NCBI GenBank assembly: GCA_016708785.1
Contig: JADJFC010000002.1
Coordinates: forward strand, 512,308-576,307
From: Bacteroidota bacterium
GTDB lineage: Bacteria > Bacteroidota > Bacteroidia > AKYH767-A > 2013-40CM-41-45
Direction: 5' to 3'
DNA: 64,000 nt
Positions within the stretch are counted from its first letter, which is position 1; each line of letters starts with the position of its first letter. The notes below the pieces were generated by a model. It did no database searches. It was not told where the DNA came from and was given only the letters and a program-made list of their open reading frames with translations. The position numbers were made by a program, and so were the translations under genes. Positions 26,667-36,600 of this stretch are shown piece by piece.

Positions 26667-29600
26667 TTGATTCATAGAATGAAATTAATACCCCAGTCGC
26701 CTAAAAAAGCACTTAAAGCTTTTCTGAAACAAAAACCATTAAGAAGTGAAATTGACCTTTTTAAGGCTAATCTCATTATTCTTCTCGATAAAATTAATGT
26801 AATCGAAAAACGCCCTAAAGACGAAAGCGAAGAGCATCTGAAAAATGACCTTCGGGACTTTTTGCGAGATACGTATTACAAAGAATCAAATGCTATCAAT
26901 ACGAAAGACAAAAAGGATCTTGTCATCCATTTAGGAAAAACTACAGATAGTGAAGTGGGAGTGATCATAGAAGCAAAACGTCCGACGAATATCGGTGAAA
27001 TGATTTCTGCTGATAATCCCAATAAAAAAGCCCTGCACGAACTCATTTTGTATTATCTCGATGAAAGAAATAGTGCGGGAAACAATCAGCTGAAACAGTT
27101 GGTAATGACAAATGTCAACGAATGGTATATTATTGATGCCAATTTCTTCGACAAACATATTTACCGAAATGCTCAGATCAAAAATTGTATGAAACGAAAG
27201 TCAATGACAAAAAAGACAATCCTTTCTTTTATGGAAGAAATTGCAAAAATTATCTCCAAACTTGATGTTGAAATCCCTTGCGTTTATTTTGATATTCGCG
27301 AATACGATACTATTTTAAGAAATAATAAGAAAGAAGATGATCGCCAGCTAAGTGCTTTACTGAAAATTCTTTCGCCACAGCATTTGCTCAAAATTGCTAC
27401 GCCAAATGACAGTAATACACTAGATGAAAAATTCTATAAGGAATTACTTCACATCATTGGACTGGAAGAAGCAAAAGAAGGCGGTAAAAATATTATTCGT
27501 CGCAAAAAAGATAATCGTAATGCTGCATCATTAATTGAATCGACAATTGAAGCACTCCTGACCGACGATCCATTTCATCGGATTCCTGATCTTTCCATCT
27601 ATGGCGATACGAAAGAAGAAAGAGCATTCAATGTTTCGCTTGAATTGTGCATTACCTGGATCAATAGAATTCTTTTCCTCAAATTGCTCGAAGGACAATT
27701 GATCACATACCATCAAGGCAATAAGGATTATCGATTTTTAAATACAGAAACCATTCACGACTTTGATGAGCTCTTCAAATTGTTCCATAAAGTTTTGGCT
27801 GTAAATGTTGGCGATAGAAGTGAGGCTGTTAAGTCGAAATACAGTCGCGTTCCTTATCTGAATAGTTCGTTGTTTGAAATAAGTGAACTGGAAGATCAGA
27901 CCATTAAAATTAATGCGGTTGACAACAGCGGACAATTGGAACTTATTAGTACAACAATTTTAAAGGCTGTAAAAAGTAAATCCAATAAACTTCAGCCGCT
28001 CGATTATTTGTTTCAATTTCTCGATGCATACGATTTCGCAAGTGAAGGAACTGAAGATGTTCAGGAAGATAATAAAACCATTATAAATGCTTCTGTACTT
28101 GGAAAAGTATTCGAAAAGATAAACGGATATAAAGACGGATCCATTTTTACGCCTGCATTTATAACAATGTATATGTGTAAACAGTCAATTCGTTTGGCTG
28201 TTGTGGAGAAATTCAATGAAACTCTTTCGAAGAAAGATGAAAAACTGTTCGATAAATTTGATGATGTAAAGAACTACACTTCCCGCTTATTCAAAACGCA
28301 GGAGATTCTAAAGGCAAATGAAATTATTAATTCATTGCGTATTTGTGATCCCGCTGTTGGTTCCGGACACTTTTTAGTTTCTTCTTTGAATGAGATCATC
28401 AGTATAAAAGCAGAACTTGGAATTCTTGCAGATGAATCAGGAAACAGTATCAGCGGTTATGAGATCGAAATTGTTAATGATGAATTGATCATTACTGATC
28501 CGAAAAGTAGCATTCTCGAATATAAATTGCAGAATGGAAAACCGTTGAGCAAAGAAATTCAACGACTTCAAAAAGCGCTCTTCCATGAAAAGCAAACGAT
28601 CATTGAAAGTTGTTTGTTTGGAGTTGACATCAATCCTAATTCTGTGAAGATCTGTCGTCTTCGTTTATGGATTGAACTGTTGAAGAATGCATACTATAGA
28701 GAAGAAAGCGGTTTCACAGAACTTGAAACTCTTCCCAATATCGACATCAATATAAAATGCGGAAATAGTTTGCTCAGTCGTTTTGCTTTGGATTCTGACC
28801 TGAGCAAAGCTTTAAAGAGCATTAAGTACGACATCAAAGCCTATCGTGGTTTTGTAAGCGATTACAAGAACGAAAAGAGCCGCGATGTAAAACGCGGATT
28901 ACAAAGATCATCGACAGCATCAAAAGCGATTTCAGAACAGAGATCAGTCGCGACGATCCGAAGCAAATTAAATTGAGTAAACTCGGTGGCGAATTATTTA
29001 CCTTACTCAACCAAAGCCAGATCTTCGAACTTACTCCCAAAGAAAAGAAAGCTCAGAAAGACAAAAAGGAAAAGCTCGAAGCCGAAATAAAAAAACTCAC
29101 TGCTGAAGTCGAAGAAATAAAAAGTAATGCCATTTATAAGAATGCCTTTGAATGGCGGTTTGAATTTCCGGAGGTGTTGGGGAATGATGGGGAGTTTGTG
29201 GGGTTTGATTTGGTGATAGGGAATCCGCCGTATATACAATTGCAAAGTATGGGTAATGATGCTGAAGTACTTTCTCATGCGTTGTATAAAACATTTGCTA
29301 GAACTGGAGACATTTATTCACTTTTCTATGAAAGGGGAAATAGTATCCTGAAAAATGATGGTTATCTGTCTTTTATTACGTCTAATAAATGGATGAGAGC
29401 GGATTACGGGAAAATACAAGAAAGTTCATTTGTGAATTCACTAATCCTTTGTTATAAAGACTTTGGAATGGTTTTGGTTTTTGAAAATGCGACAGTTTTG
29501 AGTAATATTTTAATGTTTAAATCTAAACCAACAAAAGCTCTTAGCAGTACGAATTCCAGATTCATTTGATTTAAAATCGTCGTTGGAAGATTACTATGCT

Positions 29601-30196
29601 GAAAATTTGGTTCCTGTTGTAATTAGTGAAAATGCATGGCTCATACAAGATAAGGAAGTTCAAAAATTAAGCAAAGGGGCTTTGGCGTGGGACGATTTAT
29701 GGACAAACGGTTTGATGATGCATTTGTGATAGATGGAGCAAAACGAAGTGAGCTAATTATGAAGGATTCAAAGAGTGCAGAAATTATCAAACCTTTATTG
29801 AGGGGAAGAGACATCCAAAAGTACCATGCTGATTATAATGACTTATGGTTACTCTTTATACCATGGCATTTTCCTCTACATAAAGATAAATCAATTCAAG
29901 GCGCATCTACAATAGCTGAAACTGAATTTCAAAGGCAGTATCCTGCAATCTATGATCACCTTCTTGGTTTTAAAGAAAAACTTAGTGCCAGAAATAAAGC
30001 TGAAACTGGTATCAGATACGAGTGGTATTGCCTACAGCGTTTTGGATCTAACTATTTTGAAGATTTTGAAAAGGAGAAAATCATTTACCCGAATATGACG
30101 AAATTTTTACCGTTTGTCTTTGATAAAGGGTCGTTTTATACTAACCAAAATGTTTTATTATTACAGGTGAACACTGTGGCAGCTTTCAAATTCTAA
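26667..30196 (+). CDS. Type IIG/IIL restriction-modification fusion enzyme (Eco57I/MmeI-like), about 1176 aa if contiguous. Currently split into three ORFs (26667-28976, 28973-29569, 29687-30196) by at least three frame breaks.
   Basis: N-terminal PD-(D/E)xK nuclease signature (DLVIHLGK...VIIEAKRP). N6-adenine methyltransferase motif I DPAVGSGHFLVSSL and motif IV VIGNPPYIQLQSM. C-terminal Eco57I/TaqI-like specificity region (KPLLRGRDIQKYH). The 29570-29686 gap translates in a third frame as IPDSFDLKSSLEDYYAENLVPVVISENAWLIQDKEVQKLSKGALAWDDLW, bridging the pieces. Confidence 0.75.
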
Positions 30197-30645
30197 GTTT
30201 AGTAGTTTCGCTACGTTAAAAAGTGTCAGACACGGAAGATTTTTGAATTAGTGGAAACTAAAGATGAAACGAGAAGAAGATACGAAAAGAGTTCTTTATT
30301 GAACAGAAATTGCTTCATTTCGAGTTATCAGAAGAGAATTGAATAAATAATGCAGAATATTAAAATGGTAAATTATTGTAATTTTCGAACTGATGAGATT
30401 GTAAACGTAATTCTTTTATTTGGCGCATTTTTTGCTCTTTTTAAACTCATTATTTCAATGCTTTTGAACTGGAGGCTGGTTTTGCCCCCCCGGGATAAAA
30501 CACTTTTCGTAATTCAGGCTCGGAAATTATCTTTAAAACAAAATTTAAAAAGACTGGAATTGAAAAGGCGGTGAGATACGAAAGTTGTTCCCTGTTATTA
30601 TAAAGGTTTGTCGTTAGTATAAAACGCCGTTTTAAATGACTTTAT

Positions 30646-31268
30646 TTGTGGCAAAAGATGGTCATAGCATATATTAGAGTAAGTACTGAAAAGCAGAATA
30701 CGGAAAATCAAAAATTTGAAATTGAGAAATACTGCAAAGTGAATGGAATTGTTGTCGAAAAATGGGTCGAAGAAAAAATTAGTGGCTTAAAAAAAATGAA
30801 AGAAAGAATGTTAGGTGGTTTGTTGAGTAAGTTAAAGAAGATGATTTATTAATTATTTCTGAATTATCAAGATTGGGTAGAAACTTGATGGGAATAATGA
30901 AAATTCTTCATGATTGTATGGAAAATGATATTCGTGTAGTTGCGATTAAAGAAGGTTATGTGCTTGGAAATAATATTAATTCAAAGGTATTAGCATTTGC
31001 ATTTGGACTTTCAGCAGAAATTGAAAGAAATTTAATATCACAAAGAACAAAGGAAGCATTAGCAAGAAGAAAAGAAGAGGGTGTTATTTTAGGAAGACCC
31101 AAAGGAAGTAAAACTAAAATACATAAATTAAAGGACAGAGAAGAAATAATTATTATGTTGGTTGGGAAAGGAAAATCTTTTACTTATATTGCTAAAAGAA
31201 TGTCAGTGCATAGGACAACAATATCCAATTATTTGAAGGAAAGAAAATTAAGCCCCCGAAGAAATTAA
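30646..31268 (+). CDS. Small serine recombinase (resolvase/invertase family) with a C-terminal HTH. One frame break at the AAA run 30834-30836 (ORF pieces 30646-30852 and 30873-31268).
   Basis: Catalytic-Ser motif IAYIRVSTEKQ. The downstream piece continues DDLLIISELSRLGRNLMGIMKIL...RTKEALARRKEEGVILGRPKG and an HTH (SFTYIAKRMSVHRTTISNYL). One extra A restores the frame (..LSKLKEDDLLII..). Confidence 0.8.
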
Positions 31269-31563
31269 AATCGTTGAAGGGAAATAAGAATTTAATCCAT
31301 GGCATTCATCAAGTATGATTTTGTTTATTAATTGACAAAGAAAGGAATGCGGTAGCAAAGGTAGAGGATAAGATTGTGTAGTATTTTTGTTTTCCGTTAA
31401 CTGGTGAACAGTCTTAATTTTGTGGACAGTTGTAGACTAAAACCAACTGTAATTTTTCAAATTGATTATTAATTCTATTTAAAGAGGGGAATTTCAACAT
31501 TTTAGGATTAATGGACACACATATTTTCACTTTTGATTATCTTTGAACTTTACAAGATAAATC

Positions 31564-32028
31564 ATGAACCTAAAGGATAAATTAAAGAAAGAGATTCAAT
31601 CCAACGAAAATTCAAAAGTCGATTGGGAAAAGCGGAAATCTGAGTGGATAAATTCTGTGAATGAACTAAATGAAATGATTATTGAGTGGTTTAGTGATTA
31701 CAAAGCAGAAGGCCTTTTGGATTTTAAATTTTCTGAAAAAGAGAATACTGAAGAGTATATTGGTAATTACAAAGTAAATATTCTGCATTTGTGTTTTACA
31801 ACAGGCAAGGAAATTGTAATTGAACCTATTGGTACATTGATAATTGGTGCATGGGCGAGATTTGATGTTTATGCCAGGGGATATAATTCCGGCAAATATT
31901 TTATTTTAAGATATAAAGAGGAATCAGGAGAATTTACATGGCATATTTCTAATCCACAGAATAGGAGAGATGTGCAGGTTTTATCTAAAGAAGTTTTAGA
32001 ATCTATATTTGAAAAATGGTTGAGTTAA
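31564..32028 (+). CDS. Hypothetical 154-aa protein with no recognisable motifs. Its stop overlaps the start of the downstream HEPN gene by 13 nt.
   Basis: Clean ORF in the low-GC island; translational coupling with the next gene. Confidence 0.5.
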   Translation: MNLKDKLKKEIQSNENSKVDWEKRKSEWINSVNELNEMIIEWFSDYKAEGLLDFKFSEKENTEEYIGNYKVNILHLCFTTGKEIVIEPIGTLIIGAWARFDVYARGYNSGKYFILRYKEESGEFTWHISNPQNRRDVQVLSKEVLESIFEKWLS

Positions 32029-32564
32029 ACTCGGATAGACTAACTGAGTCTTATCTAAATTTTATAGCAATTAAGGAATCACTAGCATACGTTCAAAAGA
32101 ATCATTCAGAAGAAATGATGATGCATTTCTGAATAAATTGGATTTCCGTATGTTAATCAGTCAATTAAAGACCGCAAAGCATTCGTGAATTCAAAAATGG
32201 AGGAAATGGTTAATTCTATGGATGAATTAATTGTTCTTGGTTTGGTGTCTGACTTCGAAAAAATCGTTTTCGATAGACTTGAAATGCCAGTGGTGAAATA
32301 TCGAAAATTGTAAAAGAAAAGTATAAAGGTGTGCCTTTCAATAAATTTTCCCTTGATTTTGTTAAGACTGCAAAAGAAATAGATAAATTATCTGTTATTA
32401 AATCTATTATTTCTCCTAAACTTCCTGCAGAGCTAGTGGAAAAATTTGCTGAAGTCGTGGAATTCCGGAACAGACTTGCGCACGGAAAAAGATTTGGGAA
32501 ACAATCAATGTTGACTTATGATGAAATTGCGCAGACTTTAGATGATGTGTTGAATTTTATTTAA
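32016..32564 (+). CDS. HEPN-superfamily protein (about 182 aa reconstructed) carrying an Rx4H motif. Three single-A deletions at AAA runs (32113-15, 32176-78, 32296-98) split it; only 32331-32564 is called in the ORF track.
   Basis: C-terminal FRNRLAHG (R-x4-H). Reconstructed as MVELNSDRLTESYLNFIAIKESLAYVQKNHSEE-NDDAFLNKLDFRMLISQLKTAK-AFVNSKMEEMVNSMDELIVLGLVSDFEKIVFDRLEMPVVK-ISKIVKEKYKGVPFNKFSLDFVK...; each junction is fixed by adding one A. Confidence 0.55.
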
Positions 32565-32745
32565 ACTAAAGGATTCGGATGAAGCAATTTAATTTCGCTA
32601 TGGCATCATAGATTTTATCAGAAAATTGCATTTATGTGTGATTTTTTTTATAGAAGATGAAGATTTTAAAGTAATCGCTAAAAGCAAAAGATTTCCAACC
32701 TTTAAATAGAAACTAGAAAAAGATAATATTGTTTTTAAACTTCAA

Positions 32746-33066
32746 ATGGTTGGATCAGATAACATATTAGGTTTGATTTTGTTGATATACTTTAAAGAGG
32801 AAAAATTTATCAAAATTAACTTAATTCAATCATCGAAAGAAAACGTTGGTAATAAGAAATTATATGACAGGATAGCCGGATGTCTCATTTCTTATGCTTG
32901 CAGGCTTTCGTTTGTTGCAGGATATGGAGGTTGCGTTGCTCTGCAACCTAAAACAGTAATTGCTAAACATTATATTGATAAGTATCAATTTAAAATAGGC
33001 GGTAAGAATTTGTACATAGAATTAGTTGATGCAGAAAATTTAATTGAAGAGTATCTAAATAACTGA
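32746..33066 (+). CDS. Hypothetical 106-aa protein, possibly a RelE/HigB-fold toxin and upstream partner of the HTH gene
   Basis: Size, and a C-terminal ..QPKTVIAKHYIDKYQFKIGGKNLYIEL.. segment that weakly recalls RelE/HigB. Separated by 4 bp from the next gene. An in-frame TAG lies 45 nt upstream with open frame before it. Confidence 0.35.
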   Translation: MVGSDNILGLILLIYFKEEKFIKINLIQSSKENVGNKKLYDRIAGCLISYACRLSFVAGYGGCVALQPKTVIAKHYIDKYQFKIGGKNLYIELVDAENLIEEYLNN

Positions 33067-33070
33067 GAAA

Positions 33071-33577
33071 ATGAAAACTAGAAAGAAACAAATAAAAGTT
33101 AAAGTTAAGGGTACTGAAATTTTGCCTAGCCAATTATCTGCGAAGCAACAAAAGGAAGCTGATAAAGAGTTTTCAAATTTTCGCTTGAACCAGTTAGGTA
33201 AGATGACTGAAAAGGAAAAGGTTTATTCTCGAATTTTGCAAATAAAGTACACGATGGAAGAATATTTTAAGAGCGATACTTATGATGCTAAATATTCATT
33301 TAGTCACTTTTTAAGAGAATATATACATTCTATTAACAAAAAAGATAATGAATTCTCTAAAGAAATAAGTTTACATTTTACGCAGCTAAGTCGAATTCTA
33401 AATAATAAAGAAGAGCCCGGCAAAAAGATATTTGTTAGGTTAGAATTGCATTCTAATAATTGGATCCCTGCTTTATATTGGTATCGTGTTTTAGAAAAGA
33501 AAAGAGAATTGGAAATTATTAATGATAAAAGTTTGAGGTCGGCCGAAAAGAAGAGAGTAAAATCTGTAATTGCATAA
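33071..33577 (+). CDS. XRE-family HTH protein (HigA-like antitoxin-type) with an N-terminal extension
   Basis: FSKEISLHFTQLSRILNNKEEPGKKIFVRLELHSNNWIPALYWYRV resembles the HigA/XRE HTH plus the following 'efW..lq' segment. Confidence 0.5.
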   Translation: MKTRKKQIKVKVKGTEILPSQLSAKQQKEADKEFSNFRLNQLGKMTEKEKVYSRILQIKYTMEEYFKSDTYDAKYSFSHFLREYIHSINKKDNEFSKEISLHFTQLSRILNNKEEPGKKIFVRLELHSNNWIPALYWYRVLEKKRELEIINDKSLRSAEKKRVKSVIA

Positions 33578-33686
33578 GAAATGTAGCATGGAAACAACAT
33601 CCTTAAGGTGTAGCCTAGCTGATAAAAGTTGGGGAAGTAGCCTGCGGACTACATCCCCAACTTTTATAGTTATTCGTGATTATTTT

Positions 33687-36600
33687 TCACTGTTTCACAA
33701 CCTTCCAAGTCTTCCTCCAATTCTCCCCTTTAATATTCACCAGATAAATCCCGGCTGCCAAATCTGAAACTCTAACTTGTTTAATTAAAATTCCTGCCTT
33801 CACGAAAATATCCTGAACCAGAATTTGTCCTAGTGCATCCATAACCTGAACAGAGATTTTTTCTGTGCCTGCGAAATCAAAAGCAATGTTGAGCAACTCA
33901 CTTGAGATCGGATTCGGATAGATACGAATTTGCTCTGTAGCAGAAATGTCGTTCACTCCAACCATAAATTGATAATACGATACTGAATGAATACAACCTG
34001 AGATTTGATCAGTGATCACTACCGTATAAAATCCGGTGTGATCCGGTGTAATAGTATTGGTAGTTCCACCAAATGGAACTCCATTGTAGGTCCACGAATA
34101 AAGATATTGTAGTCCTGTTGGTGTTGCAATCAGATCCGGCGCTGAATAATTGATCTCCGGATTTATATCAGTCAAGTTCACGGGTATCGAAGTTGAATTG
34201 GTGCAACCTGAAGCATCTGTAATTGTTACACTATAAGTTCCTGCTGTATCAACAGAGATGCATGATTGAGTTGTACTGTCATTCCACAAATAAGATGTGT
34301 AACCGGAAGTCGCACAAAGAATTCCAACTTCTCCCTGACATAGTTCCGTCTGACCTGCTATTAAAACAGGAGGTAAGCTATTGAAGACAACAACATGCGT
34401 GTCATTTCCAACACAACCTACTGCATCATGAATTGTAACAGAATAATTTCCGTTTGAATTCACGCTTATACATTCTGTGGTTTCTCCTGTATTCCATGTG
34501 TAGTCAACATAGCCGGATGGAACACAAAGTTCCAAAGGTACTCCCGGACATGGTGCATGTGTTCCTGAGATCACCGTTGTTATACTTGAGGAGAAAGTTA
34601 CAGGTAGAGAGCTACTTGCTGTACAACCATTGCCATCGGTAATTGTTACCGTATATGTTCCTGAAGAATTTACATTGATACATCTGGTCGTATTTCCTGT
34701 TGACCATTGATATAATGCACTTCCTGTTGGTGCACATAATTGTCCAACTGCACCCAGACATAATGAATTCGGTCCTGAGATAGTGGCATTCAATTGTGAG
34801 AAAATAGTAAGACCTTTTGATCCTGTCGCTGTACATCCATTTGCATTGGTAACAGTAACTGAATAAATTCCACTGGTGTTTGCGTTGATACAACGGGTCG
34901 TTTGTCCGTTTGACCAAAGATATTGATAGTTAGTTCCAGATGGTGCGCACAACTGCGGATTGCTATTGTAACATGCAGTTGAAGGTCCTGTGATCGCTGC
35001 AGAGAATGCAGGATATGCTGTAAATACTTTTGATGCACTTCCTGTACAACCTGATCCGTCAGTCACGGTTACTGTATAGGTGCCCGAAGTTGTTGGGCTA
35101 ATACATTGTGCTGTTGATCCGTTTGACCATAAAGTTGTTCCTGCCGCTGAAGCACAAAGTTGTGCAGTTTGTCCGGGACAAACACCGGCAGGACCGGTAA
35201 TAGTTAGGTTGAGACTTGCACCAACAGTCAACGTGTGACTTGCACTTCCTGTGCAACCATTTGCATCGGTTAGCTGAACGATATAAGTTCCATCAATAGA
35301 TTTACTGATGCATTGTGTTGTTTCTCCACTTGACCAGAGGTAAGTAGTAAATCCGGAAGGAGCACATAATTGGGCTACTGATCCAAAGCAAACATTTGTC
35401 GGACCGGTTATAACTGCCGGCGTTATTGCATAACTTGAAAGTACATGAGAAGCTGTGCTTTTACATCCATTTCCTCCTGTTACTGTTACTACATAATTTC
35501 CTGAATCAACAACATTGATACAAGATATAGTAGCTCCATTCGACCATAAAAATGTTCCACCAGAAGTAACAGCACATAATTGTACGGTTGTTCCGGGACA
35601 AGCAATTGATGACCCGGTGATAGAAGCAGTAGGATTTGGTAGAATAGTTATAGAGTGAGACGAACTTGAGGTACATCCATTGGCATCTGTTCCTGTTACA
35701 ATGTATGAGCCTGTGGTCAATGGCGCTAAGCATTGAGTAGTTTCACCCGACGACCAGGCATATGATGAATAACCACCTGCTGCACATAACTGCGGAAATG
35801 AATTTGCGCAACCTGATGCAGGTCCTGTGACTGACATTGCAGCTGCAGTATTTACTGTTACTGCTTTCGAATTTGTTGCCGTACATCCGCCGGCATCCGA
35901 AACACTGACAGTATATGTTCCGGTTGAAGCAGGAGAGATGCATTGAGTAGTCGCACCATTGGACCATAAGTATGTACTAAAGCCGGCATCACCACAAATC
36001 TGTGTGCCACTTCCGGAACACATTGTTGCCGGACCGGTTATAGCAACTGAAATGCTACTTCCAAATGTAACAGTATGTGAATCGGACGATGTACATCCAT
36101 TGGCATCTGTAATCGTAACTGTATATGAATTTGTGCTCGCTGAATTGATGCATTGAGTAGTTGCGCCGGTTGACCATAGGTATGAAGATGAACCTGCATT
36201 ACCACAGATCTGCACTGTATTTCCTGTACATCCTGTTGTTGGTCCTGTTATAAGAGCAGTTGGATTTGTATTAACTGTGATCGTATGACTATCTGTTGCT
36301 GTACATCCGATTGCATCAGAAACTGTAACTGTATATGATCCGCTGGATGCTGGATTAATACATTGTGTTGTTGCTTGTTGACCAAAAATAGGCTGATGCG
36401 CCAACTGTTGCACACAATTGCGGATTGGTTGATGCACAGGCTGTCGTTGGTCCGGTAATAGTTGTAGTAAGATTACAAGGATCAGTTGCACAAATACTGA
36501 ATGCACCAAAATCATCATTGCCAACATCCCACATTCTGATCCATACTGTCGCACCCGGAGTTAATCCGGAAACGATCTGAGCATATGGCATTGATGGTGT

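What the first reader, a model, noticed from the sequence alone, without database searches (positions are those of the whole stretch)
31564..32564. Translationally coupled unknown protein + HEPN (Rx4H) protein: candidate novel toxin-antitoxin or abortive-infection pair
A 154-aa protein with no recognisable motif overlaps by 13 nt a ~182-aa protein whose C-terminus carries a HEPN-type FRNRLAHG motif. HEPN RNase toxins are normally paired with an upstream MNT nucleotidyltransferase antitoxin, but the upstream partner here shows no GS...DxD nucleotidyltransferase signature. The partner could therefore be a new antitoxin or accessory type. The pair sits in a defense-type island between a serine recombinase and a HigBA-like pair. 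The HEPN gene is interrupted three times at AAA runs, consistent with the window-wide homopolymer errors, although toxin decay cannot be excluded.
Basis: partly seen in the sequence, partly recalled or inferred. Interest (0 to 1): 0.7.

Follow-up and report, generated by a model that had tools for sequence, protein, structure and literature searches.

The report
HEPN RNase with unknown conserved partner
Two overlapping genes, a HEPN-type RNase and an uncharacterised partner protein just upstream of it, form a self-contained cassette that recurs across several bacterial phyla and on small Klebsiella plasmids. It is most likely a toxin-antitoxin or abortive-infection pair whose partner protein has not been described.

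Summary
A 154-aa ORF (31564-32028) overlaps by 13 nt a HEPN gene (32016-32564) carrying FRNRLAHG (Rx4H).

The three frameshifts are single-base deletions found only in this window. At least seven other assemblies of the same species encode an intact 183-aa protein, and the window carries about one small deletion per 300 bp. They are sequencing errors, not toxin decay.

The partner is not an MNT:
- It has no Pfam, NCBIfam, PADLOC, PHROGs or PDB-sequence hit.
- It belongs to an unnamed superfamily of about 1,550 50%-identity clusters.

In 11 of 12 lineages examined, a member sits directly upstream of an Rx4H protein. These include Klebsiella 3.7-4.7 kb ColE1-type plasmids. Flanking genes vary, and a Bacteroidota -7 promoter box precedes most Bacteroidota copies.

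Best reading: an autonomous TA/Abi-like cassette, with a HEPN RNase toxin and a new protein partner that probably neutralises it. Toxicity and neutralisation are untested. The "HigBA-like" neighbours have no support.

The parts
31538..31545 (+). Putative Bacteroidota -7 promoter box, TATCTTTG (consensus TAnnTTTG), 26 nt upstream of the ORF154 start codon
   Evidence: The same motif lies 24-29 nt upstream of the start codon in 7 of the 9 Bacteroidota-type loci checked. That the consensus is a promoter element comes from established knowledge of Bacteroides promoters. It is a motif match only, not shown to be functional.
31564..32028 (+). ORF154: 154-aa partner protein and putative neutralising or regulatory subunit. 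Alpha/7-beta/alpha sandwich. Member of an unnamed superfamily.
32016..32028 (+). 13-nt overlap (ATGGTTGAGTTAA) between the ORF154 stop and the HEPN start. Implies translational coupling.
   Evidence: The identical 13-nt overlap geometry is present in all 19 related loci.
32016..32564 (+). HEPN-domain gene (183 aa once corrected), the predicted RNase toxin. In the window it is broken by three single-base deletions, after 32094, 32135 and 32281.
32466..32483 (+). Codons for the Rx4H catalytic motif: R152-N153-R154-L155-A156-H157
   Evidence: R152, N153 and H157 are invariant in 32 family members. Codon positions were read directly from the sequence.

Best explanation
The two genes form an autonomous, horizontally mobile two-gene cassette of the toxin-antitoxin / abortive-infection kind.

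Shown here:
- The genes are always adjacent in the same order, and usually overlap.
- They diverge together.
- The cassette sits in unrelated genomic contexts and on small plasmids.
- The downstream protein is a HEPN-fold protein with an invariant Rx4H motif.
- The upstream protein is a non-enzymatic-looking alpha/beta sandwich of a large unannotated superfamily.

Inferred:
- The pair is transcribed from its own promoter and co-translated through the 13-nt overlap.
- The HEPN protein dimerises, as HEPN RNases do, to form a metal-independent RNase site that cuts cellular or phage RNA and stops translation.
- The upstream protein binds the HEPN protein directly and keeps it inactive.
- Phage infection, or loss of the cassette, removes or displaces the partner and releases the RNase.

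In this window the HEPN gene only looks broken, because of sequencing errors.
For: HEPN identity:
- Family-level Pfam hits to PF18737 and PF18735.
- Invariant R152/N153/H157.

Cassette behaviour:
- Same order and same 13-nt overlap in 19 of 19 related loci.
- Pairwise distances of the two proteins correlate across 15 pairs (Mantel r 0.61, p 2e-4).
- Flanking genes differ between genomes.
- A TAnnTTTG box lies 24-29 nt upstream of the start in 7 of 9 loci.

Generality:
- In 11 of 12 lineages of the partner superfamily examined, an Rx4H protein of about 175-192 aa follows directly.
- These include Klebsiella ColRNAI-type 3.7-4.7 kb plasmids and an IncFIB plasmid, and an island holding a type I R-M and AAA_21 ATPase genes.
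- The one exception is a solo partner gene (L035). This fits the usual TA pattern of orphan antitoxins.

Charge pattern:
- In the distant pairs the upstream protein is acidic (pI 4.7-5.7) and the downstream protein is basic (pI 8.6-9.8).

No sign of an RNA antitoxin:
- No Rfam match and no upstream repeats.

Errors, not decay:
- The three deletions are window-specific.
- Against the closest strain the window has 31 small deletions but only 36 substitutions in 9.6 kb.
Against: - No experiment or complex model shows that the two proteins interact, that the HEPN protein is toxic, or that the partner neutralises it.
- The partner has no DNA-binding domain, so the usual type II autoregulation is not evident.
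- Within the window's own family the charge asymmetry is weak (median pI 5.95 against 6.76).
- The partner's invariant polar residues (E63, Y69, R99, D101) could mark a ligand-binding or catalytic site rather than a protein interface.
- No hit in PADLOC, so there is no link to any validated defence system.
- The window's own HEPN protein scores below Pfam's gathering cut-off (18 against 26.8 bits). The family assignment rests on its relatives and on the fold.
Confidence: 0.55

Rival explanations
1. Sensor-effector abortive-infection pair rather than a classical antitoxin. The upstream protein recognises a phage component with its exposed beta-sheet and activates or recruits the HEPN RNase. The RNase is inactive by itself.
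For: - Invariant surface-type residues are conserved down to about 25% identity, which suits a recognition site.
- One locus (L036) has two diverged tandem partner genes before a single HEPN gene, as expected for diversifying sensors.
- The cassette occurs in or next to R-M and defence genes in the window and in L031.
Against: - The upstream-then-overlapping gene order and the acidic/basic charge pattern are typical of neutralising antitoxins.
- A solo partner gene exists, but no solo HEPN was seen among the lineages examined.
- Carriage on 3.7-4.7 kb plasmids fits addiction as well as defence.
Confidence: 0.2
2. Enzymatic (type VII-like) antitoxin. The upstream protein chemically modifies the HEPN protein, or a small molecule, to control the RNase. 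This would be analogous to MntA AMPylating HepT.
For: - A near-invariant EPxGxxxxGxxGRxD motif plus E63 and Y69 across the superfamily is stronger conservation than many purely steric antitoxins show.
- HEPN toxins are known to be controlled this way (PMC7641770, listed).
Against: - No similarity to any enzyme family by sequence.
- The closest folds are non-enzymatic: frataxin, type III secretion chaperones, Mediator subunits.
- There is no nucleotide-binding signature.
Confidence: 0.07
3. A non-toxic cellular function: a HEPN RNA-processing or RNA-binding protein with an accessory subunit. Alternatively, a true frataxin/CyaY-like iron-handling protein that merely neighbours a HEPN gene.
For: - Some HEPN proteins are housekeeping or non-catalytic (PMC3710099).
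Against: - Distribution is patchy. Only 4 of 185,579 species-representative genomes carry the close family.
- Genomic context is variable, and the cassette is plasmid-borne in Klebsiella.
- No frataxin Pfam hit, and only 11-19% identity to frataxins.
- No link to isc/suf genes in any locus.
- The catalytic Rx4H is invariant.
Confidence: 0.08
4. In this genome the HEPN gene is a truly decayed pseudogene (an inactivated toxin), not a sequencing artefact.
For: - Three frameshifts fall in a 190-bp stretch of the toxin gene, while the partner gene is intact.
- One of the three deletions is not in a homopolymer.
Against: - All three deletions are unique to the window. At least seven other assemblies at 98-99.6% identity are intact.
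- Small deletions are spread through the whole region at about 1 per 300 bp and also break the R-M and resolvase genes.
Confidence: 0.04

Closest known systems
RiboL-PSP-HEPN / MAE_28990-MAE_18760-like HEPN families (Pfam PF18735, PF18737; Anantharaman et al. 2013, PMC3710099)
   Same: - C-terminal Rx4H motif with the polar residue after the Arg (RNxxxH).
- All-helical HEPN fold.
- 29 of 32 family members hit PF18737 and 18 of 32 hit PF18735.
- Predicted toxin role in conflict systems.
   Different: - The described contexts are fusion to endoRNase L-PSP, operons with ParB or DNA methylase, or with a ParA/Soj ATPase. None of these is present here.
- The window protein itself is below the Pfam gathering score.
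- The partner family found here is not mentioned in that survey.
Type VII HepT-MntA (HEPN-MNT) toxin-antitoxin systems
   Same: - Two-gene dyad with the partner gene upstream of, and coupled to, a small HEPN RNase.
   Different: - The partner is not a nucleotidyltransferase by sequence or by fold.
- The HepT NCBIfam model scores 14.6 bits against a cut-off of 60.
- The HEPN protein is larger (183 aa against about 120-140).
RnlA-RnlB / LsoA-LsoB (HEPN toxin with a small non-MNT protein antitoxin; anti-phage TA)
   Same: A HEPN RNase held in check by a small protein that has no DNA-binding domain and blocks it directly (PMC8266594, listed). This is the best functional analogy for the proposed mechanism.
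   Different: - RnlA is a three-domain protein, and from my own knowledge its antitoxin gene lies downstream.
- No sequence relationship.
- RnlB did not appear among the fold matches of ORF154.
Frataxin / CyaY fold
   Different: - 11-19% identity and no Pfam frataxin hit.
- ORF154 has an extra long N-terminal helical hairpin and seven strands.
- No Fe-S cluster gene context.
- This is resemblance of fold only, not family membership.
AbiD/AbiF-type single-protein HEPN abortive-infection systems
   Same: The RiboL-PSP HEPN family is described as distantly related to AbiF/AbiD. A sporadic, mobile, defence-type distribution is shared.
   Different: - Those are single proteins. In Clostridioides difficile, AbiF is reported to be controlled by an RNA (title).
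- Here a conserved protein partner is present, and no RNA element was found.
- No PADLOC AbiD/AbiF hit.

Membership tests
HEPN superfamily | Rx4-6H motif with a polar residue after Arg, near the C-terminus | tested here: met
   R152-N153-R-L-A-H157. R152, N153 and H157 are invariant in 32 homologues. The codons are 32466-32483.
HEPN superfamily | All-alpha helical-bundle fold resembling solved HEPN domains | tested here: met
RiboL-PSP-HEPN (PF18735) / MAE_28990-like HEPN (PF18737) | Significant match to the family profile | tested here: inconclusive
   The window protein scores only 18 bits on PF18737, against a cut-off of 26.8. Relatives reach E 7.8e-6 on PF18737 (29 of 32) and 1.4e-8 on PF18735 (18 of 32). 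It cannot be assigned to one of the two families.
RiboL-PSP-HEPN (PF18735) | Fusion to, or operon with, endoRNase L-PSP or ParB | tested here: not met
   No L-PSP or ParB domain in the pair or in its neighbours in any locus.
Type VII HepT-MntA TA system | Upstream partner is a minimal nucleotidyltransferase (GS...DxD) | tested here: not met
   No NTP-transferase hit in Pfam, NCBIfam or PADLOC. The fold is a frataxin-like sandwich.
Type VII HepT-MntA TA system | Toxin matches the HepT equivalog model | tested here: not met
   NF047751 scores 14.6 bits against a cut-off of 60.
Type II-like toxin-antitoxin module | Conserved two-gene operon with the smaller partner gene upstream and coupled to the toxin gene, moving as a unit | tested here: met
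   19 of 19 loci share the 13-nt overlap. 11 of 12 lineages of the superfamily keep the arrangement. The two proteins co-diverge. Flanks vary. The pair is plasmid-borne in Klebsiella.
Type II-like toxin-antitoxin module | Toxin inhibits growth, and the antitoxin neutralises it by direct binding | not testable with these tools
   Needs expression and rescue experiments, or a complex prediction. No multimer prediction tool was available.
Type II-like toxin-antitoxin module | Antitoxin carries a DNA-binding domain for autoregulation | tested here: not met
   No HTH, RHH or AbrB hit. The fold search gives no DNA-binding fold. This feature is not universal among type II systems; RnlB, for example, lacks it.
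Abortive-infection / phage defence system | Protects against phage | not testable with these tools
   No PADLOC match for either protein or for their distant relatives. The only support is context: an R-M system and a recombinase lie next to the pair in the window, and L031 is a defence island.
Frataxin/CyaY family | Sequence membership (PF01491), not just fold | tested here: not met
   No Pfam hit at E<=1 or among 28 relatives at E<=0.1. A PDB sequence-profile search finds no frataxin.

The most novel reading that the evidence does not exclude
The ORF154-like proteins define a large, phylum-spanning and so far unnamed superfamily of dedicated HEPN-RNase partners. It comprises about 1,550 clusters at 50% identity, in Bacteroidota, Bacillota, Pseudomonadota and Desulfobacterota-type MAGs.

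Together with two very different Rx4H protein families, one of them (the 'RHWLAHGRYW' type) also absent from Pfam, they would constitute a new, widespread class of HEPN toxin-antitoxin or anti-phage system. Control would rest on a conserved E/Y/R/D site on a frataxin-like sheet, which differs from both MNT-type AMPylation and RnlB-type blocking.
Probability: 0.45. Interest if true: 0.7.

Novelty: new variant of a known kind. Interest (0 to 1): 0.6.

Why it matters
HEPN RNases are among the commonest toxins in bacterial conflict systems. Well-understood regulators include the MNT nucleotidyltransferases, RnlB/LsoB, and the cyclic-nucleotide sensor domains of CRISPR-associated HEPN effectors.

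A third, abundant protein partner with a different fold would add a new way of controlling a HEPN RNase. It would also give a name and a role to about 1,550 clusters of 'hypothetical proteins'.

Relatives of the pair sit on 3.7-4.7 kb ColE1-type plasmids of clinical Klebsiella. This makes the idea cheap to test for toxicity and rescue, plasmid stability and phage resistance. It may also help explain how these cryptic plasmids persist.

For the genome scan itself, the practical result is that the apparent toxin decay is an assembly artefact.

Tried and rejected
Divergent MNT partner: rejected.
- No family hit.
- The fold is a frataxin-like sandwich.

L-PSP/RidA partner, as the Pfam family name 'RiboL-PSP' would suggest: rejected. 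No PF01042 hit, and the paper describes a fusion that is not present here.

True frataxin: rejected as membership. The similarity is fold only.

RNA antitoxin or type III-like control: no support.
- No Rfam match at E<=1 in 30000-34000.
- No tandem repeats upstream.

Operator palindromes and sigma-70 promoters or terminators around the pair: nothing beyond chance in this AT-rich DNA.

Known defence systems: no PADLOC hit beyond weak noise, whether for the window proteins or for distant pairs.

Phage origin: no support.
- No PHROGs hit.
- No tblastn hit of a relative (P0221) in 50,697 phage records.
- No BFVD structural match at E<=0.001.

Solved structures by sequence: none for either protein.

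Homology between the two partner Rx4H families (A2 and A4): hhalign aligns only the Rx4H helix (probability 10%, E 0.003). A common origin of the two families is not shown, and the HEPN fold of the 'RHWLAHGRYW' family is inferred from the motif only.

Searches that could not be run:
- The afdb50 fold library was unavailable.

Literature: searches for RiboL-PSP, HEPN with frataxin, the Klebsiella protein accessions, and recent HEPN toxin papers found no description of this partner family. The library lacks most subscription journals, so absence is not proof.

'HigBA-like' downstream pair: no Pfam hit for either ORF.

Full report
**What is in the sequence**

- Window 31564-32028 (+) is an intact ATG-started ORF of 154 aa, here called ORF154.
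- A second gene starts at ATG 32016, inside the last 13 nt of ORF154 (ATGGTTGAGTTAA), and ends at 32564.
- As it stands in the window, the second gene is split across four frame segments.
- Its C-terminal part reads ...VVEFRNRLAHGKRFG..., so R152-x4-H157 is encoded at 32466-32483.

**The frameshifts are sequencing errors**

ORF154's exact protein sequence occurs on many public contigs of the same species, Bacteroidia/Bacteroidota MAGs from several samples. I aligned the window with eight of these loci. The HEPN gene differs by three single-base deletions that only the window has:

| Position | Change | Context |
|---|---|---|
| after 32094 | A missing | A run, AAAA instead of AAAAA |
| after 32135 | C missing | AATA[C]AAT, not a homopolymer |
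| after 32281 | A missing | A run, AAA instead of AAAA |

- Putting the three bases back gives a 183-aa protein identical to the one encoded in L004. It is within a few substitutions of those in L003 and L005-L007. L013 and L014 also encode intact 183-aa proteins.
- Against the closest strain (L004) the window has 36 substitutions but 31 one- or two-base deletions and 3 insertions in 9.6 kb. About half of these sit in homopolymers.
- The neighbouring R-M and resolvase genes are fragmented in the same way.
- This is the pattern of an unpolished, deletion-prone assembly. It is not selective decay of the toxin gene.

**The downstream protein is a HEPN protein**

- The window protein alone gives only sub-threshold Pfam hits: PF18737 at 18 bits against a cut-off of 26.8.
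- Its family is clearer. There are 38 homologues, almost all exactly 183 aa.
- Of 32 aligned members, 29 hit PF18737 (MAE_28990/MAE_18760-like HEPN, best E 7.8e-6) and 18 hit PF18735 (RiboL-PSP-HEPN, best E 1.4e-8).
- R152, N153, H157 and the following G-K-R-F are invariant.
- The AlphaFold2 model is confident (pLDDT 88.1) and all-helical.
- It is not a HepT equivalog: NF047751 scores 14.6 bits against 60.
- It lacks the contexts described for the RiboL-PSP family, namely L-PSP fusion or a ParB operon.

**The upstream protein is not an MNT**

- ORF154 has no hit in Pfam, NCBIfam, PADLOC, PHROGs or PDB sequences. Its 28 close relatives have no Pfam hit either.
- Every source calls these proteins hypothetical.
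- The model is confident (pLDDT 86.5, pTM 0.78). It has a long N-terminal helical hairpin, seven antiparallel strands and a C-terminal helix.
- I treat this as fold resemblance only, because no frataxin sequence signal exists.
- No nucleotidyltransferase or DNA-binding fold appears among the matches.

**The partner belongs to a large unnamed superfamily**

- A profile of the close family, searched against 1.84 billion cluster representatives, finds 1,552 proteins at E<=1e-3 and 708 at E<=1e-10. Most are 150-190 aa.
- Across 135 representatives sharing only 23-47% identity with ORF154, these positions stay nearly invariant: W28, E63, G67, Y69, P88, G98, R99, D101 and W126 (G95 lies just below 90% in this 135-sequence set and at or above 90% in the 90-sequence alignment). 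The window protein has Ala at position 98.
- They form an EExxGxY hairpin and an EPxGxxxxGxxGRxD motif.
- Named source organisms include Geobacillus, Parageobacillus, Klebsiella, Methylococcales, Candidatus Magnetomoraceae, Chitinophaga, Flavobacterium and Arcicella.

**The pairing is conserved**

Within the close family:
- In all 19 related loci fetched, the HEPN gene follows ORF154 with the same 13-nt overlap.
- Distances between the two proteins correlate over 15 pairs (Mantel r 0.61, permutation p 2e-4). The partner diverges slightly faster, with a mean distance of 0.36 against 0.30.
- The flanking genes are unrelated from genome to genome: lipoproteins, gcvP/nrdA, miaA and glycosyltransferases, guaA and others.
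- A match to the Bacteroidota -7 promoter box TAnnTTTG lies 24-29 nt upstream of the start codon in 7 of 9 loci. In the window it is at 31538-31545.
- The pair therefore behaves as a self-contained, mobile transcription unit.
- The close family is rare. It is present in 4 of 185,579 species-representative genomes, all Bacteroidota.

Across the superfamily, 11 of the 12 lineages I could inspect (the window's own family is one of them) have an Rx4H protein of about 175-192 aa directly downstream. It overlaps, or lies within 10 nt, in every case except the proximal paralog in L036.

| Downstream Rx4H type | Loci |
|---|---|
| Same type as the window (RNRxxHGxRF) | L023, L032, L036 |
| Second type, invariant RHWLAHGRYW, no Pfam match | L021, L024, L028 (Parageobacillus), L030 (Magnetomoraceae), L031, L033, Klebsiella plasmids |

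- L036 carries two tandem partner paralogs before one HEPN gene.
- The exception, L035, is a solo partner gene.
- In Klebsiella the pair (WP_064279389 or WP_044525166, with WP_040173808) sits on non-mobilizable ColRNAI-type plasmids of 3.7-4.7 kb. These carry little else besides rop and an HTH gene. It is also on IncFIB plasmids.
- In these distant pairs the upstream protein is acidic (pI 4.7-5.7) and the downstream protein basic (pI 8.6-9.8).
- The two Rx4H families align with each other only over the catalytic helix (hhalign E 0.003, probability 10%). For the second family, HEPN status is inferred from the motif alone.

**How it most likely works**

Shown:
- A conserved, co-diverging, mobile two-gene unit.
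- The partner gene comes first and is coupled to the second gene by the overlap.
- The downstream protein has a HEPN fold and an invariant catalytic motif.
- The partner is a non-enzymatic-looking sandwich with a strongly conserved polar patch.
- No RNA element or repeat array was found.

Inferred, from established knowledge of HEPN RNases and of TA/Abi modules:
- The HEPN protein dimerises into a metal-independent RNase that arrests translation.
- The partner binds it and keeps it silent.
- Phage infection, or loss of the cassette, frees it.

The closest functional analogy is RnlA-RnlB. The closest architectural analogy is HepT-MntA.

I put about 0.55 on the neutralising-partner version. The rivals are:

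| Rival | Weight |
|---|---|
| Sensor/activator version | 0.2 |
| Enzymatic antitoxin | 0.07 |
| Non-conflict cellular role | 0.08 |
| Real pseudogenisation in this strain | 0.04 |

**Context in the window**

- Upstream lie a type IIG R-M gene (Eco57I/MmeI-type, 26667-30196, fragmented by the same indel errors) and a serine recombinase (30646-31268).
- The recombinase is confirmed on the intact allele: Resolvase at E 6.7e-33 plus HTH_38.
- GC content is 0.31-0.32 at 30-34 kb, against about 0.36-0.43 in the adjacent 2-kb windows. This is consistent with an acquired island.
- The cassette is not tied to this island elsewhere.

**Novelty and limits**

- I found no description of the partner family or of this pairing in the family libraries or in the searchable literature.
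- The 2013 HEPN survey lists other partners for the related HEPN families.
- One lead could not be tested. That survey mentions a beta-rich 'MAE_18760-NTD1' domain fused to some HEPN proteins, and it could be related to ORF154.
- Fold libraries of predicted structures (afdb50) were unavailable. No complex prediction could be run.
- I classify the finding as a new variant of a known kind: a HEPN two-gene toxin module with a new and widespread partner.

Noticed in passing
window ~32647/32648 (downstream of the HEPN stop); L005:2730-2857: The window lacks a 128-bp stretch that is present in L001, L003 and L005. The missing piece holds the start (ATGGAAGTT...) of the next gene. In the other assemblies that gene reads MEVDILPIEDEDFKVIAKSKRFPTFK-TAG-KLEKDNIVFKLQ-MVGSD.... 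So there is an in-frame TAG 13 codons before the 106-aa ORF at window 32746-33066. This could be a pseudogene, a mis-called start, or read-through.
   Followed up: partly
window 29235-31255; L001:6520-7692: One assembly of the same species (L001, GCA_963851495) lacks the serine recombinase and the 77-aa ORF. It has about 1.17 kb of different sequence at the 3' end of the type IIG R-M gene, giving a 1253-aa product instead of 1278 aa. This suggests a strain-variable specificity/recombinase segment.
   Followed up: partly
window 26667-31268: The Eco57I/MmeI-type R-M gene and the resolvase gene are each split into several ORFs by small deletions. Relative to L004 the window also lacks stretches of roughly 80 and 115 nt around 30175-30218 and within 30218-31600. 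Assembly quality in this low-GC island is poor.
   Followed up: partly
window 32746-33066 and 33071-33577: This downstream ORF pair (106 aa and 168 aa, separated by 4 nt) is conserved in the same-species loci but has no Pfam hit. The 168-aa protein has an HTH-looking segment by eye only. Function unknown; the 'HigBA-like' label is not supported.
   Followed up: partly
P0128 (L034:704-1939) and P0198: Two relatives of ORF154 are C-terminal domains of 411-aa and 496-aa proteins. Each has an unknown N-terminal domain of about 160 aa and a long Ala/Lys/Pro-rich, histone-H1-like linker. The contig is too short to show a downstream gene.
   Followed up: no
L036:2501-4144: A three-gene variant: two diverged tandem copies of the partner gene (165 and 166 aa), followed by one overlapping HEPN gene (192 aa, YRNRISHGKRFG).
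   Followed up: partly
L026 (NZ_CP092518.1, 4655 bp): 1261-1656 and 629-871: The small Klebsiella ColRNAI plasmids carrying the distant pair hold two further hypothetical genes (131 aa and 80 aa). These travel with the pair onto an IncFIB plasmid, L027. They may be part of the same mobile unit.
   Followed up: no
L010:1326-2454 (minus strand): In the Flavobacterium MAG, the cassette lies next to an overlapping HTH (96 aa) plus 285-aa gene pair. By arrangement this looks like another TA- or defence-type module. It was not analysed.
   Followed up: no
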